DNA of 64,000 bases from Escherichia coli (GTDB taxonomy: Bacteria; Pseudomonadota; Gammaproteobacteria; Enterobacterales; Enterobacteriaceae): NCBI RefSeq assembly GCF_048403405.1, contig NZ_CP183129.1; one strand, given 5' to 3'. Position numbers: made by a program. Numbering within the stretch: the stretch's first letter is position 1; each line of letters begins with the position of its first letter. This document shows, piece after piece, positions 30,001 through 36,000 of this stretch.

Positions 30001-33000
30001 TCAGATGGCTCAAGATAATCAATGTCATGCCCATCCTCATCGTCGTTCTCAGGTAATGCAGCAGGTACTACCGGTACTGGCGGAGCGGCGTAGACTTCAA
30101 TAATCCCATTATCAATAGGCCATTCCCCATCCTTGATGTAGTCACTTGTGCCGTCAACTTGCTGTTCTGCAATGTGGAATGCACCAACTGGCTCTGCCTC
30201 AAGCGAGGCCAGTGCAATTCGTGCCAGTTCCATTTGTTCGCCACGGGTAAGCCCGTTTTCAAGTGGGGATTTAATGAACAATTCGATACGTTCTTTAGTG
30301 ATAGTGCTCATATCACTCTCCTTTGATGCGAATGCCAGGGGCGCGTGGCACATTAACTTCCACGATGCGCACAGTTGGTTTGTACATCTCAATCGCTGTC
30401 AGCCAGTCAGCTCCTGTCATGCGCTTTTCCGCATCGCCATTAGTCCACTGAACCGGTACACCAATAGCCTTCATCGCGATTTCTATTTCCCCGGCAATGG
30501 CGCTTTTTCCGCAACCAGTAAAACCAGATACAACGACAAGAACTTCGCCTTTGGCTGGTTTTATTTCCCGTGCTTCCAGTTCTGCTATGCGCTTCTCTGC
30601 GGCTTCCAGCTCAACACGCAGCTTCCCTACCGTTAGCGCAATTTCCTCGTTCTCCTGGTCGCGGCGTTTTATGTATTGCTGGTTTCTTTCCCGTTCATCC
30701 AGAAGCGCCAGCACTAATTTAGGGTTGAAAGCTGCGATAAATTCTGCGTTGTTCTCTGCATTTTTCTGGTCGTCAAAGCCAGGCCATTTGATAATGTCTC
30801 CGCAACGTTCATCCCCCGGCGTATGCACCGCATATGTACCAGTGTCCGGCGAGATGAATGCACGCCATTCGCCCTGTGTTGCCTGTTGCGCTATCTTACG
30901 TAAGGTAGCTAATTGTTCGCTGGTAAAAGTCATCATGGTTGCATCTCCCGTTCTTCTGCCCACTTCCGAAGCCCTTCAATCTCACCATTACGAGCTATCA
31001 GCTCGCGACACAGTCTTTCGTTTTCATCCAGCAGCGCCAGCACGGTAGCTGGATTGGCTGCGGCGATGAATTCAGCATTGGCCTGCTGTTCCATTTGGAA
31101 ATCTTCATAGAAACGGCTTTCTGGATGCGCTCCTTCAATTCTGCAAATAGGAATATATCCAGCAACCTCGCGATGAATTAGTGCATCATCACCATCAAAT
31201 CGTCCCTCTCCATATTCGAGCGACCACACACCACACGTTGCTTTCTCTGCCTTTTCACGCAGTGCCTGATAGTCAATCTTGCTCACTGGTTGCCTCCTTT
31301 GCGAAGCTGGGCAGCAAAGTCAACTAACCACTCAGTCATTTCAACCTTCCCTACCAGATCTGAACCAGGGTGCATACAGCAATCACTCTGCGCCGCTTTG
31401 AAATCCTTATACTCATATTCTTGGGCCACCAGATTTTTTGCAGCTTCTATAGCAGCATCCACGCCCTGCGCCCGCACTTCAGCCAGGAAAGCATCGGTGG
31501 CTGGGGTTTCAGTAACATCATCTTCCCATTCGCTAAACTCCTCACGACAAAAGTCATTAAATTCCTTCTCAGATTGCTTAAGTGAGGTATTTTCAGCAGC
31601 CATCTTCGCGCATTTAGCCTCAAGGTTATCAATCGTGATTCCAGCAGAACGACACTCCCGCAACGCCGTTTCTAGTTTTGATTCAAGTTCACCGAACTTA
31701 CGGACAAGATATTCAGCGTTTGTTTCGTTAACCTTTAAATCTCGTGGGATGCATTTACCTTTCAGAAATCCATCCATCTCAATTAGTGACATTTGTTTCA
31801 TTTCTTCCCACTCCGCAACATCGCGTTCAGATATTTGTTTTGATTCACTGATGGAAACTCTCTCGCTTAAGTAATTCCTCTCTCGATGGCATTGGCTTTA
31901 CGCGTTGGCGAATAATCATTTCTGCCGGAAGAATGCCGGGATTGTATGCAAGTCCTCTCATGGTAAATTCCTCTTTGTTAATTTATTTGTATGCCTGCTC
32001 TTTCTTCATCGAGTTTTTTTAGCTTGTATCGCATAGCCCTTACTGAATAAATTGAGCGGCAGGTTGCAATTGCTATTTCTTCTGCGGAGAACTTACCGAA
32101 AAGTGATACTTCGGCTCTTGTCCATCGTCTTCCACGAAGTCGGCTAACAATGTCAGCGCCAATCCTTGTTGCTTTCGCCATAACTGCTTTTTCAGTCCTT
32201 TCCAGTTTTTCAGCGATAACTTCAACTGGCATTGTCGCCGCCACTTCGCGCAAGAAATCGACTTCCCATTTCTCCCATGGAGTCTTTTTCATAGGCGATA
32301 CCGTTATTTGATAAGAAGTGAAGGTTTCCCAACTTTGAGTTGAGCACCGGGGATATTTATTCCTGCTTTTAGTTGGTGTTTGATTGCCAGTTTGTCGGCT
32401 TTAATTGTCGTTTCGAACTCAACGTATTCAGGAGGAAGGGCGCTTGAGTCGATGATTTCTACAGTTTCTGACGGTTTGCGGATTGTTACCTGGTGAATAC
32501 CTGCTCGAATCTTTTTCTTGCCAACCATTTCAAGCGATGACGCTATATACGCCATAATGCTGTCAATCTTATTTTGAATTACTGCGGCTCGCTCATTTAG
32601 TGACTTTGCCTCTTCCTTGAGGCGTTCAGCATAACCAGATTCATTTTTAATAATGGCGAGAAGTTGCTCTATTTTATCGGTAAATTCTCCTTCCATGCCT
32701 TCTATTGTGTCAGCAATCATCTCTGGCTCTAAATCTGAATCCATCAATTTTGCGTATTCATTGGCTATTTCATACAGTTTGCTCACTGGCAACCTCCAGT
32801 TTCGCTTTGCATTCTATGTAAATGGCTTGTACGTTCTGCTGCAATTTCATTCCAGATGTCAGGCGATATGCTTCTGCAAAATATCGCTTCAAATCATCCA
32901 TGTTTTCTGCCTGAGCCATTTCATCGCAAAGAAGTTGTGCTTTATCCATTATTTCCTGCCGGCGTTTCCGTTCATCTTCGCGGATATCTTCCTCTGATTT

Positions 33001-36000
33001 GTGCGGCATAACTGGTTCAGTCCATACACCTTCTTCTTCGTTTAGTACGTGAATAGCACTATCAAGACGTGATGCCTTAGGCCAATACTTGCTTGCACGC
33101 TTCACGACCGTCTTTCGCGCCATCTCATTCCAGTGATTTACCCATGGTCCTTTATCGCTGAATGCCGCCTTGCTTGTTTTCCTTACAGCCTCAATTTCAG
33201 CAAGACTCATCTCTTCCGTTAGATAATCACCTGCCGGCGTCTTAACTGTGCAGTAAACGCCAACGATATCACCACGATCACCGAAGGCGTTGTATTTATG
33301 GGTTGGTGCTTTATCAAGCCCGTTTGACTCATAGGTATCGTTAGCATGAACAAGTTTTGCCTGACCCCATGAGATAACACCAGACTCCATTGCAATATGG
33401 AGCAATCCCATATAGCTGATATCAAGGCAAACCATGCCGTCGCGCGGAACCAGATAAGCCAGTTTGCTGGCCGGGTTTAAGGTGATGCCGATCGCCGCAA
33501 CATTGATGATGGCGTTCTGTGCGCTGGTTGGATTTGCCAGTGCTGTTTTAGCCAGGTAATCATTTTTCTGGAAATACTGAATTGCAAACTGGCTTTCCTT
33601 AGCCCATGTCACCGTCTGTTCAGTCAATGCTCCGCAGAATAACTGCTCCTGCTGTTTAACGAATTCAACGATATTGCTCATGCAGCTTCTCCATAAATAT
33701 GTCTGCGTTTGAATATTGCGAAGGCATATTCAGCCTTAACTCTTTCGGTTATTGCATCCCAGAACCATTCAGCGGCTTTTTCCTGATAGTTACAGTCATC
33801 ATCTTCCAGCCAGTCGATAGCGTCCTTAGTGTGTTCATCTGGTTTATATGAGCGAAGCATTTCGCTTATTGGGTCGCAACGTTTGCAGAGGCGATCAACT
33901 TCACTGTTGATTCGTTCGTAATCTTCATCAGTAAAACTTGCGATTATTTGCGATATTTCACGCTTATCATTCAGAGTCAGAATCATCATCTTTCTCCTGT
34001 TCTTTGTGCTGATTGAGCATTTTGTTCATCTGACGAATGAATTCTTCGTCTGACCAGTTATCTGTAAAACTCATGGACGGCCTTGTTGTTTCAAAATATC
34101 CCAAAGCTTTTCGAGCAAACTTTTCATTCTTGGTTGTTTAAAGTCTGCTCCGGTTAAAATGTTTTTTCGTGAATGCTGCACCGATAAAATTGGGTTGAAA
34201 GGGCGAACCGATGCCGCCCCTGCAATAGCGAACTGTTGCATAGGATGCTCCTTCTGTTTGATTGCATAACGAAAACGCCTCGAGTGAAGCGTTATTGGTA
34301 TGCGGTAAAGCCGCGCTCAGGCGGCTTTGATAGTCATATCATCTGAATCAAATATTCCTGATGTATCGATATCGGTAATTCTTATTCCTTCACTACCATC
34401 CATTGGAGGCCATCCTTCCTGACCATTTCCATCATTCCAGTCGAACTCACACACAACACCATATGCATTTAAGTCGCTTGAAATTGCTATAAGCAGAGCA
34501 TGTTGCGCCAGCATGATTAATACAGCATTTAATACAGAGCCGTGTTTATTGAGTCGGTATTCAGAGTCTGACCAGAAATTATTAATCTGGTGAAGTTTTT
34601 CCTCTGTCATTACGTCATGGTCGATTTCAATTTCTATTGATGCTTTCCAGTCGTAATCAATGATGTATTTTTTGATGTTTGACATCTATTCATATCCTCA
34701 TAGATAAAAAATTGCCCTCACATTGGAGGGCAAAGAAGATTTCCAATAATCAGAACAAGTCGGATCCTGTTTAGTTACGAGCGACATTGCTCCGTGTATT
34801 CACTCGTTGGAATGAATACACAGTGCAGTGTTTATTCTGTTGTTTATGCCAAAAATAAAGGCCACCATCAGGCAGCCTTGTTGTTCAGTTTACCAAGTTC
34901 TCTGGCAATCATTGCCGTCGTTCGTATTGCCCATTTATCGACATATTTCCCATCTTCCATTACAGGAAACATTTCTTCAGGCTTAACCATGCATTCCGAT
35001 TGCAGCTTGCATCCATTGCATCGCTTGAATTGTCCACACCATTGATTTTTATCAATAGTCGTAGTCATACGGATAGTCCTGGTATTGTTCCATCACATCC
35101 TGCGGATGCTCTTCGAACTCTTCAAATTCTTCTTCCATATATCACCTCAAATAAGTGGTTTGCTGCCTAATTTCATTTTCTGGCTACCAACACAAGTCAC
35201 ACCCATTTCACTACGTGGCTTGCTGTACCATGTGCGCTGATTCTTGCGATCAATACGTTGCAGGTTGCTTTCAATCTGTTCGTGGTATTCAGCCAGCACT
35301 GTAAGGTCTATAGGATTCAGTGCGCTTTCTACTCGTGATTTCGGTTTGCGATTCAGCGAGAGAATAGGGCGGTTAACTGGTTTTGCGCTTACCCCAACCA
35401 ACAGGGGATTTGCTGCTTTCCATTTAGCCTGTTTCTCTGCGCGACGTTCGCGGCGGCGTGTTTGTGCATCCATCTGGATTCTCCTGTCAGTTAGCTTTGG
35501 TGATTGGATGGCCGGCGCTGAACCCCGGCTTACTGGTTAGAGCGCCCGCACTACCAGTGACGCTGTCTTGAGGCGCAGATTGGTTACTGCTTGCCATGAG
35601 CGCTGTTTATACATTGGTCGAGCATCAGCCTGCTCATTCATCCAATCCCAAAGCCTTCTGCTTTGAATGCTGCCCTTCTTCAGGGCTTAATTTTTAAGAG
35701 CCTCACCTTCATGGTGGTCAGTGCGTCCTGCTGATGTGCTTAGTATCACCGCCAGTGGTATTTATGTCAACACCGCCAGAGATAATTTATCACCGTAGAT
35801 GGTTATTTGTATGTTTTTTATATAGATTTATTTTTTGCAGGGTTGTGTGGATTGGGAAGGTGATCGAGAGATCTGAATTGCGATGTTTAGTGAGTTGTAT
35901 CTATTAATTTTGAAATAAATACAATTGGTTATGCGTTTTTTGGGGGGGCGTTAGGCAAAGAAAACCCGGCGCTGAGGCCGGGTTATGTAGGCATTATGCG

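What the first reader, a model, noticed from the sequence alone, without database searches (positions are those of the whole stretch)
31978..33989. RecT/Gp157-type recombination module instead of lambda Red
The leftward early operon has a RecT-family annealase with a Gp157-like partner and unknown flanking genes, and no exo/bet/gam homologues were recognised.
Basis: partly seen in the sequence, partly recalled or inferred. Interest (0 to 1): 0.3.

Follow-up and report, generated by a model that had tools for sequence, protein, structure and literature searches.

The report
RecT–Gp157 phage recombination module, exonuclease-free
This is an intact copy of an already catalogued phage recombination cassette (a RecT DNA-annealing protein paired with a Mu-Gam-like "Gp157" protein instead of lambda's Exo/Bet/Gam), so it is ordinary, though its two small flanking genes and the RecT tail give testable leads about how it works without its own nuclease.

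Summary
Four tightly packed minus-strand genes at 31978-33989 sit in the N-antiterminated PL operon of a P22-like prophage: a 103-aa unknown (phrog_3486), RecT (PF03837), Gp157 (PF05565) and a 104-aa HTH-repeat protein.

The cassette is about 98% identical in DNA to phages HK140, mEpX1, Gally and Kapi1. It is full-length in 264 of 5426 complete E. coli genomes. Zheng et al. 2025 already list the HK140 type as "SAP-4 + MuGam, no nuclease, no SSB".

No Exo/RecE-type nuclease and no lambda Gam is detectable. However, "no gam" is only partly right:
- Gp157 is a remote relative of Mu Gam (profile-profile 80%).
- The 104-aa protein is a Mu gp9-type protein (96%), and Mu gp9 lies next to Mu gam. It shares a PHROG family with P22 Abc1.
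- The 103-aa gene occupies the slot that holds Gam or GamL in sister phages.

One pattern I did not find stated in the papers I read: the RecT C-terminal ~80 residues co-vary with the downstream partner (Gp157 versus an exonuclease). This suggests RecT docks Gp157 as Red-beta docks Exo.

Verdict: already known module, low interest, with modest mechanistic leads.

The parts
33967..34074 (-). 35-aa ORF (ATG 34074) between the cIII-like gene and the 103-aa gene. Its N-terminus equals that of HK542 gp31 (phrog_2123/17766). It carries an 'SDEEFI' motif also present in P22 Arf. Its 3' end overlaps the start of the 103-aa gene. The right-hand mosaic junction with Erf-type modules (34025) lies inside it. 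Membership of the module is uncertain.
33678..33989 (-). 103-aa (102 aa from the second ATG) acidic, all-helical protein, phrog_3486, of unknown function. It is translationally coupled to recT (ATGA overlap) and occupies the 'gam slot' upstream of the annealase.
32770..33681 (-). RecT-family single-strand annealing protein, 303 aa. The N-terminal annealing domain is about residues 1-220. The C-terminal ~80 residues are conserved only among RecTs followed by Gp157.
32304..32786 (-). Siphovirus Gp157-family protein, 160 aa (GTG start; the longer TTG ORF starts at 32792). It is a remote relative of Mu Gam. It occupies the position that an exonuclease holds in RecT-Exo operons.
31978..32292 (-). 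104-aa basic protein made of two Myb/LuxR-like HTH repeats. It is a Mu gp9-type protein in phrog_323/phrog_11492, the PHROG family that also holds P22 Abc1.
31845..31961 (-). DUF2737 gene (homologue of P22 orf56 and HK542 gp27) cut to 38 codons by a premature stop. It marks the conserved left flank of the exchangeable cassette; the junction with HK542 is at 31973.
35742..35770 (-). Lambda-type PL promoter match (TTGACA-17-GATACT) that would drive the operon. The N gene is at 35147-35473.
41866..42276 (+). NinB (lambda Orf-type recombination mediator) in the rightward nin region. It is a recombination accessory outside the module.
43529..43891 (+). RusA Holliday-junction resolvase. A YbcO putative nuclease lies just upstream at 43242-43532. 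Both are recombination accessories outside the module.

Best explanation
This is an intact HK140-type lambdoid recombination (Rec) module in a P22-like, headful-packaging prophage. It is expressed from PL after N antitermination.

Shown by family membership: RecT is the annealase.

Inferred: RecT pairs complementary single strands to circularise the terminally redundant infecting chromosome, to feed recombination-dependent replication and concatemer formation, and to drive mosaic exchange.

The module has no nuclease of its own. Gp157, a coiled-coil plus small C-terminal domain protein distantly related to the Ku-like end-binding protein Mu Gam, most likely binds the double-strand ends and shields them from RecBCD/SbcCD. 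It probably recruits RecT through the RecT C-terminal ~80 residues, which co-vary with the presence of Gp157. Single strands would be exposed by host enzymes or at replication forks.

The 104-aa Mu gp9/Abc1-like HTH protein is an accessory DNA-binding cofactor. The acidic 103-aa protein in the gam slot is a candidate second host-nuclease inhibitor or RecT cofactor.

Steps shown here: gene identities, operon structure, family relationships, synteny and the co-variation pattern. Steps inferred: end binding, RecBCD protection, RecT-Gp157 contact and reliance on host resection.
For: Identity and integrity:
- Pfam and PHROG hits.
- 31% identity to Rac RecT, E 3e-23. Weak match to the solved Listeria RecT 7UB2.
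- About 98% nt identity to viable phages Gally, HK140, mEpX1 and Kapi1, with identical gene lengths.
- HK140 type listed as SAP-4 + MuGam, no nuclease, no SSB (PMC12315714).

Phage type: P22 portal, coat and terminase. [quoted passage not shown]

Gp157 and Mu Gam:
- PF07352 collinear hit, E 0.008.
- 11 of 111 diverse Gp157 members hit PF07352, best E 5e-6.
- hhalign of the Gp157 family against 43 Mu Gam sequences: 79.7%, E 1.5e-5, 116 columns.

Gp157 as a recombination partner:
- It lies next to RecT, Rad52/Sak-type annealases or PHROG-annotated exonuclease-family proteins (phrog_7838/2489) in unrelated contigs.
- In Firmicutes phages, Gp157 and Mu Gam occupy the same slot beside erf/sak4 (PMC8093625).

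RecT C-terminal domain (CTD) co-variation: local alignment (Smith-Waterman) scores of 119-400, with 0 of 500 shuffles reaching them, in five RecTs followed by Gp157. Scores are random (26-30) in six RecTs followed by an exonuclease, although some of those have closer N-domains. Precedent: the Red-beta CTD binds lambda Exo and SSB (PMC6393309).

No Chi site in the 35.5 kb of prophage, as in most phages that carry an anti-RecBCD gene (PMC12315714).

104-aa protein against the Mu gp9 family: 95.9%, E 5.7e-9. Mu gp9 lies directly upstream of Mu gam.
Against: - No biochemical data exist for Gp157.
- Its Pfam Mu Gam score (16.6 bits) is below the curated cut-off (28.3).
- The high-confidence AF2 model (pLDDT 95.8) gave only coiled-coil matches in the PDB and no Ku hit. 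No Mu Gam structure was available to compare.
- HK639 and KO-TP1 carry GamL as well as Gp157. Gp157 may therefore not be simply an anti-RecBCD device.
- An end-blocking protein does not by itself explain how single strands are generated.
- One metagenomic RecT-Gp157 pair shows only weak CTD similarity (58 of 500 shuffles reached its score).
- The absence of Chi is not significant against base composition (about 1 expected).
Confidence: 0.7

Rival explanations
1. Gp157 is not an end-protection (anti-RecBCD) protein. It is a nuclease-slot partner: a scaffold or loader that replaces Exo as the RecT-binding component, for example by delivering RecT to ends or forks. RecBCD is handled by the gene in the gam slot (the 103-aa protein here; Gam or GamL in sister phages).
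For: - Gp157 sits exactly where exo sits in RecT-exo operons (phi80, TL-2011c, ENT47670, Midgardsormr38).
- The RecT CTD switches with this partner.
- HK639 and KO-TP1 have GamL as well as Gp157.
- Fold searches returned only coiled-coil matches.
Against: - Profile evidence links Gp157 to Mu Gam over nearly its full length.
- In Firmicutes phages, Gp157 and true Mu Gam alternate in one slot (PMC8093625).
- End binding and RecT loading are not mutually exclusive.
Confidence: 0.25
2. The 103-aa phrog_3486 protein is an unrecognised Gam analogue, a small acidic helical inhibitor of RecBCD or SbcCD. If so, the module contains a 'gam' after all.
For: - The same slot holds lambda-type Gam in Dewey and GamL in HK639, KO-TP1 and phi80.
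- Homologues at 49% and 39% identity head [3486]-recT-exo operons, which have the gam-bet-exo order.
- pI 4.65, net charge -9, all-helical, about the size of GamS.
- A 22-23-residue motif resembles the Gam C-terminus: 2 of 3000 shuffles reached the score against Dewey Gam, and 71 of 3000 against lambda Gam.
- SEN22-type phages carry this gene. They are listed as lacking anti-RecBCD yet have no Chi sites (PMC12315714 Table 1).
Against: - hhalign against lambda Gam gives 0.9% probability.
- No PF06064 hit.
- A profile search of PDB sequences does not find Gam.
- Foldseek finds no PDB match with E below 4.
- No similarity to HK639 GamL.
- The model is only moderately confident (pLDDT 76.7).
- The family is narrow, so there is little evolutionary signal.
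Confidence: 0.3
3. The module is an inert relic of a defective prophage and does nothing now.
For: - The neighbouring DUF2737 gene is truncated.
- No integrase lies next to the excisionase-like gene in the window.
Against: - All four genes are full-length and 98-100% identical in protein to those of plaque-forming phages.
- The TorI-type excisionase arrangement puts the integrase at the other prophage end (my recollection of KplE1/HK620-type phages), which is outside the window.
- Head, portal and terminase genes are intact.
Confidence: 0.05
4. Gp157 is a 'phage resistance' or superinfection-exclusion protein, as the Pfam text and some 'Resistance protein' annotations suggest.
For: BFVD matches are named 'Resistance protein'. 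A source name for a homologue reads 'resistance protein'.
Against: - The gene is embedded in, and overlaps, recombination genes.
- It is conserved beside annealases of three families.
- To my knowledge the 'resistance' label comes from a cloned origin-containing DNA fragment of a Streptococcus phage, not from the protein.
Confidence: 0.03

Closest known systems
HK140 / mEpX1 / Gally / Kapi1 Rec module (SAP-4 + MuGam type of Zheng, Casjens et al. 2025, PMC12315714)
   Same: Same four genes, same order and lengths. About 98% nt identity over 2.3 kb, and 99-100% protein identity for RecT and the 103-aa protein. No nuclease and no SSB.
   Different: Nothing substantive. HK140 has an extra 93-aa gene between the 104-aa gene and DUF2737. 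Here DUF2737 is truncated.
Lambda Red (gam-bet-exo)
   Same: Same operon position under PL/N control. Same logic: an annealase whose C-terminal domain is matched to the gene downstream. A small acidic gene sits upstream in the gam position.
   Different: No Exo. No BLAST-level similarity of RecT to Bet. No PF06064 Gam. The downstream partner is a non-nuclease Gp157.
P22 arf-erf-abc1-abc2 module
   Same: Also nuclease-free, in a P22-like headful phage. Conserved flanks (cIII side and DUF2737/eaE side). An Abc1-like HTH accessory lies downstream of the annealase (phrog_323). A possible Arf-like mini-ORF lies upstream.
   Different: The annealase is RecT, not Erf. The anti-RecBCD candidate is Mu-Gam-like Gp157, not the RecC-binding Abc2. 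BLASTP of the 104-aa protein against Abc1 finds nothing, and hhalign gives only 46%.
Phage Mu gp9-Gam pair
   Same: A Gam-type protein is adjacent to a two-HTH-repeat gp9-type protein. The 104-aa family against the gp9 family gives 95.9%. Gp157 against Mu Gam gives 79.7%.
   Different: The gene order is inverted (gp9 precedes gam in Mu). No annealase lies beside Mu gam. Both proteins have diverged beyond BLAST recognition. Among the Mu-like loci sampled, the gp9-gam linkage was seen in only 10 of 44.
phi80-type gamL-recT-exo and Rac recE-recT modules
   Same: Same RecT family. The N-domain is 59.5% identical to phi80 RecT and 31% identical to Rac RecT.
   Different: Those RecTs have an unrelated C-terminal domain and an exonuclease partner.

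Membership tests
RecT family annealases (PF03837 / phrog_148) | Significant match to the RecT domain above the curated threshold | tested here: met
   PF03837: 111.6 bits against a cut-off of 24, E 4.7e-32. phrog_148: E 6e-92.
RecT family annealases (PF03837 / phrog_148) | Homology to experimentally characterised RecT proteins | tested here: met
   31% identity over 236 aa to Rac RecT, E 3e-23. Weak match to the solved Listeria RecT 7UB2, E 0.0044.
RecT family annealases (PF03837 / phrog_148) | ssDNA annealing / strand-exchange activity | not testable with these tools
   Needs biochemistry or an oligo-recombineering assay.
Siphovirus Gp157 family (PF05565) | Full-length match above the curated threshold | tested here: met
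   126.8 bits against a cut-off of 28.6, covering profile positions 1-162 of 162. There are 7267 representative clusters with E<=1e-3.
Mu Gam / Ku-like end-binding proteins (PF07352) | Sequence membership at Pfam's curated threshold | tested here: not met
   16.6 bits against a cut-off of 28.3, E 0.008, although collinear over profile positions 29-147 of 149.
Mu Gam / Ku-like end-binding proteins (PF07352) | Remote homology by profile-profile comparison | tested here: inconclusive
   hhalign of the Gp157 family against 43 Mu Gam sequences: 79.7%, E 1.5e-5, 116 columns. 11 of 111 members hit PF07352. Against a single Mu Gam sequence only 6%.
Mu Gam / Ku-like end-binding proteins (PF07352) | Ku-like fold (dimeric ring around DNA) | tested here: inconclusive
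Mu Gam / Ku-like end-binding proteins (PF07352) | Binds dsDNA ends and blocks exonucleases | not testable with these tools
   Needs EMSA or nuclease-protection assays.
Lambda Red system | Lambda Exo/YqaJ- or RecE-type 5'-3' exonuclease gene in the module | tested here: not met
   No nuclease family hit in any left-operon ORF with Pfam or PHROGs. BLASTP against lambda Exo found nothing.
Lambda Red system | Lambda Gam (PF06064) homologue | tested here: not met
   No PF06064 hit even at E<=10 for the 103-aa protein. hhalign gives 0.9%. Only a 22-23-residue motif is shared.
P22 Abc1 | Recognisable sequence homology to Abc1 | tested here: inconclusive
   BLASTP finds none. Both proteins hit phrog_323 (E 2e-20 and 1e-23). 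hhalign family against family gives 46%, E 2e-4, over one HTH repeat.
Mu gp9-type HTH-repeat proteins (phrog_323) | Profile-level homology and two-repeat architecture | tested here: met
   hhalign 95.9%, E 5.7e-9, 71 columns. phmmer hits to gp9-like ORFs of Mu-like contigs. The repeats are visible in the alignment.
HK140-type Rec module (SAP-4 + MuGam, no nuclease, no SSB; PMC12315714) | Same gene content and near-identity to the prototype | tested here: met
   98.2% nt identity over 100% of the 2.3-kb query. Gene-by-gene correspondence. Paper text.

The most novel reading that the evidence does not exclude
The module could be a nuclease-free two-component recombinase. In it, a Ku/Mu-Gam-like end binder (Gp157) replaces Exo as the physical partner of the annealase, docking on a dedicated RecT C-terminal domain. 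It would be helped by two unrecognised accessory families. One is a gp9/Abc1-type HTH protein that travels with Gam-type proteins from Mu to lambdoid phages. The other is phrog_3486, a new Gam analogue that would also explain why SEN22-type phages have no Chi sites despite being listed as having no anti-RecBCD gene.
Probability: 0.3. Interest if true: 0.5.

Novelty: already known. Interest (0 to 1): 0.2.

Why it matters
As a genome feature it is routine: a common, catalogued variant of the lambdoid recombination module. Its practical value is as a compact annealase set for recombineering. It also touches the open question of how the many nuclease-less phage Rec modules generate and handle DNA ends (84 of 246 modules in PMC12315714 lack a nuclease). 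The RecT C-terminal-domain/partner co-variation and the conserved gam-slot and gp9/Abc1 accessory genes give concrete, cheap experiments on that question. They could also assign functions to P22 Abc1, Mu gp9 and phrog_3486, which are currently unknown.

Tried and rejected
1. The Gally annotation 'Anti-RecBCD protein 1 (Abc1)' for the 104-aa gene. Direct BLASTP found nothing. I keep it only as a distant, family-level resemblance.

2. The 103-aa protein as a Gam, GamL or RecE-N-terminal homologue. All tests were negative or insignificant: hhalign against lambda Gam, the PF06064 (Pfam Gam) model, a profile search of PDB sequences, hhalign against Rac RecE, Foldseek, and shuffle tests including HK639 GamL. 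Only positional evidence remains.

Neighbourhoods were sampled one contig at a time instead, and many contigs were too short.

5. The supplementary tables of PMC12315714 are not held, so the exact row for HK140 could not be read.

6. Chi counting found no Chi in the prophage. Only about one is expected from composition, so this is merely consistent, not evidence.

7. I first suspected a missing integrase. This was rejected as an anomaly because the excisionase is TorI-type and the integrase is expected at the far prophage end.

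
Full report
**Setting.** The window is E. coli chromosome carrying a lambdoid prophage from about 28.5 kb to beyond 64 kb. 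The prophage lies next to the UpaE autotransporter gene (19687-27600) and an OmpH-like gene. The virion genes are P22-like: PF16510 portal, PF11651 coat and a Terminase_3 large subunit. That implies a headful packager. The immunity and early region is lambda-like:
- cI at 36612-37325 and cro at 37426-37626.
- A PL match TTGACA-17-GATACT at 35770-35742.
- N carrying the lambda N36 arginine-rich motif, ral, and an ea10 100% identical in protein to lambda's.

**Observation.** The finding's coordinates contain exactly four co-directional minus-strand genes:
- A 103-aa ORF at 33678-33989.
- recT at 32770-33681. Its ATG overlaps the upstream stop codon.
- A Gp157 gene at 32304-32786. The GTG start gives the 160-aa length seen in 114 of 120 homologues and in PGAP annotation.
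- A 104-aa ORF at 31978-32292.

RecT matches PF03837 at E 4.7e-32. Gp157 matches PF05565 at E 1e-36 across the whole profile. No minus-strand terminator-like site lies between 34274 and 29382, so the genes belong to one N-antiterminated transcript.

**Is it already known?** Yes. The 2.3-kb stretch is 97.4-98.4% identical over its full length to phages Gally, HK140, mEpX1 and vB_EcoP-611R6, and 97.9% identical over 95% of its length to Kapi1. It is full-length in 264 of 5426 complete E. coli genomes. Zheng, Casjens, Smith and colleagues (PMC12315714) surveyed 325 lambdoid phages. They cite HK140 as the example of strand-annealing type SAP-4 working with no phage SSB, no phage nuclease, and a 'MuGam' anti-RecBCD protein. 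They also note that 84 of 246 modules lack a nuclease and that nearly all headful packagers have a Rec module.

**Nuclease and Gam.** Every left-operon ORF was scanned against Pfam and PHROGs. Key ORFs were compared by BLASTP with lambda Exo/Bet/Gam, P22 Erf/Arf/Abc1/Abc2 and Mu Gam/gp9. No Exo/YqaJ, RecE or other nuclease is present in the operon, and no PF06064 Gam is present. The rightward nin region adds NinB/Orf, a YbcO putative nuclease and RusA. These are recombination accessories, not resection nucleases.

**Gp157.** PHROGs names its family 'Mu Gam-like end protection'. I tested that label.
- Supporting: the protein gives a collinear but sub-threshold PF07352 hit (16.6 bits; cut-off 28.3).
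- Supporting: among 111 diverse family members taken from an exhaustive search that found 7267 clusters, 11 hit PF07352, the commonest secondary family, with a best E of 5e-6.
- Supporting: a profile of these members against 43 Mu Gam sequences recovered from Mu-like viral contigs gives hhalign probability 79.7%, E 1.5e-5, over 116 collinear columns.
- Uninformative: the AlphaFold model is very confident (pLDDT 95.8). It has an N-terminal helix, a 68-residue helix and a small C-terminal region. PDB and BFVD searches returned only coiled coils and unnamed Gp157 relatives. No solved relative exists by sequence.

The Mu Gam relationship is therefore probable, but it is remote and not structurally verified here.

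**Gp157 is a general recombination-module component.** In unrelated contigs it lies beside RecT, beside a Rad52/Sak-type annealase plus SSB, or beside PHROG-annotated exonuclease-family (RecE-like) proteins. A survey of Firmicutes phages reports Gp157, true Mu Gam, DUF1351 and DUF2483 alternating in one slot next to erf or sak4 (PMC8093625).

**The 104-aa protein.** It consists of two Myb/LuxR-like HTH repeats, and three repeats in 152-aa relatives.
- The Gally record calls it Abc1-like. BLASTP against P22 Abc1 finds nothing.
- It hits phrog_323 at E 2e-20, as do P22 Abc1 (1e-23) and Mu gp9 (5e-29).
- Family-level hhalign gives 95.9% (E 5.7e-9) against Mu gp9-type proteins. It gives 46% against Abc1. 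gp9 against Abc1 gives 53% over the full length.
- Mu gp9 lies immediately upstream of Mu gam, an arrangement kept in 10 of 44 Mu-like loci.

A Gam-type protein and a gp9-type protein are therefore neighbours both in Mu and here. Abc1, whose molecular function is unknown (PMC12315714), is a plausible more distant relative.

**The 103-aa protein (phrog_3486).** The family is narrow, with 27 clusters. The protein is acidic (pI 4.65) and predicted all-helical at moderate confidence. It has no Pfam, PDB-sequence or fold match.

Its position is informative:
- The same slot upstream of recT holds a lambda-type Gam in phage Dewey and GamL in HK639, KO-TP1 and phi80.
- Homologues at 49% and 39% identity head [3486]-recT-exo operons in Cronobacter ENT47670 and Erwinia Midgardsormr38. 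That is the gam-bet-exo order.
- In SEN22 it precedes a RecE-type nuclease.
- A 22-23-residue motif resembles the Gam C-terminus, but it is not significant after multiple comparisons.

A Gam-like role is a lead with about 30% probability, not a result.

**Nested mosaicism.**
- Against HK542 (Erf/SSB/Abc2), homology stops at 31973 and resumes at 34025. The exchangeable cassette therefore equals the finding's four genes.
- Against SEN22, only the RecT+Gp157 core (32293-33677) is replaced.
- Against HK639, only the core is shared, at 66% identity.

RecT and Gp157 thus travel together, while the two flanking slots vary.

**RecT tail.** tblastn shows this RecT type in 170 phage records. Full-length matches are confined to a minority; the rest align only over residues 1 to about 220. 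I compared twelve phage RecTs, plus Rac RecT as an outgroup.
- The C-terminal ~80 residues keep clear similarity in all five phage RecTs followed by Gp157: Dewey, HK639, PA-1, KO-TP1 and Vibrio 1.247.A. Local alignment (Smith-Waterman) scores are 119-400, and 0 of 500 shuffles reach them.
- The tail is at random level (26-30) in six RecTs followed by an exonuclease: phi80, TL-2011c, Vibrio 1.198.B, PY100, ENT47670 and Midgardsormr38.
- Some of those six have N-domains closer to the query than Vibrio 1.247.A does.
- One metagenomic RecT-Gp157 pair is weak (58 of 500 shuffles reached its score).

The Red-beta C-terminal domain binds lambda Exo and SSB (PMC6393309). I therefore infer that this RecT tail docks Gp157. 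Gp157 occupies the Exo slot rather than the Gam slot.

**Mechanism (best estimate).**
- Shown: identities, operon structure, synteny and co-variation.
- Inferred, step 1: after induction or infection, Gp157 binds the ends of the linear, terminally redundant chromosome and shields them from host nucleases.
- Inferred, step 2: Gp157 recruits RecT.
- Inferred, step 3: host enzymes or replication forks expose single strands.
- Inferred, step 4: RecT anneals them, which circularises the genome and supports concatemer formation.
- Inferred, accessories: the gp9/Abc1-like and 103-aa proteins assist.

The prophage part of the window has no Chi site. That agrees with the class of phages that carry an anti-RecBCD function, but it is not statistically significant by itself.

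**Verdict.** The finding is real and correctly read in outline, but the module is already catalogued. Interest is low (0.2). The leads on the RecT tail, the gam-slot protein and the gp9/Abc1 family are modest and untested.

Noticed in passing
window 32770-33438 (RecT residues 223-303 are encoded at 32770-33015): The RecT C-terminal ~80 residues co-vary with the downstream partner gene. They are conserved in RecTs followed by Gp157 and unrelated in RecTs followed by an exonuclease, independently of N-domain similarity.
   Followed up: yes
window 28704-28904 (-), and 27648-28700: The excisionase-like gene is TorI-type, and no integrase lies between it and the host OmpH/UpaE genes. This is probably the arrangement I recall for KplE1/HK620-type phages, where int and xis end up at opposite prophage ends. 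The integrase would then lie beyond the window.
   Followed up: partly
window 31845-31961 (-): The DUF2737 gene (P22 orf56 / HK542 gp27 homologue) is cut to 38 codons by a premature stop, against 54 in relatives. It lies at the left mosaic junction of the cassette.
   Followed up: partly
window 33967-34074 (-): A 35-aa ORF shares its N-terminus with HK542 gp31 (phrog_2123, named 'recombinase'). It has the motif SDEEFI also found in P22 Arf and sits in the same position upstream of the annealase. It may be an Arf-like cofactor. The similarity is too short to assess.
   Followed up: partly
window 34218-35000; 35742-35770: This stretch is 96% identical in DNA to phage lambda (cIII end, ea10, ral), with ea10 100% identical in protein. 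An exact lambda-type PL hexamer pair is present. So lambda-derived early-left segments sit in a P22-like virion background.
   Followed up: partly
window 36165-36545 (-): A 126-aa ORF (phrog_16322, no Pfam) lies between cI and PL, in the position of lambda rex or other lysogen-expressed morons. Its function is unknown.
   Followed up: no
window 44971-45126 (+): Two phage-borne tRNA genes (Asn-GTT and Thr-TGT) lie just downstream of the Q antiterminator gene (44073-44696).
   Followed up: no
window 39165-41045 (+): The replication module pairs an O-like initiator (38197-39057) with a 626-aa Toprim primase / DnaB-like helicase fusion, rather than a lambda P or P22 gp12 type.
   Followed up: no
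window 46612-47340 (+): A T5orf172/MUG113-domain protein (242 aa) is encoded between the lysis and terminase genes. It may be a mobile nuclease-like insert.
   Followed up: no
window 16594-16601 and 17587-17594; prophage 28500-64000: The only two Chi sites (GCTGGTGG) in the window are in the host part. The 35.5 kb of prophage has none.
   Followed up: partly
L168 (Salmonella phage SEN22) 1577-3589: SEN22 keeps the 103-aa and 104-aa flanking genes but replaces RecT+Gp157 with a 273-aa RecE-type nuclease and a 189-aa phrog_11517 protein. The published survey lists this type as lacking anti-RecBCD yet having no Chi sites.
   Followed up: partly
L012, L165, L166, L167 (metagenomic contigs): Distant Gp157 genes directly follow, and overlap, proteins of phrog_7838/phrog_2489. 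PHROGs annotates these as exonuclease. One is a 716-aa protein with a YdfE_N domain, and none has a Pfam nuclease domain on record. Whether they are true nucleases is unclear.
   Followed up: partly
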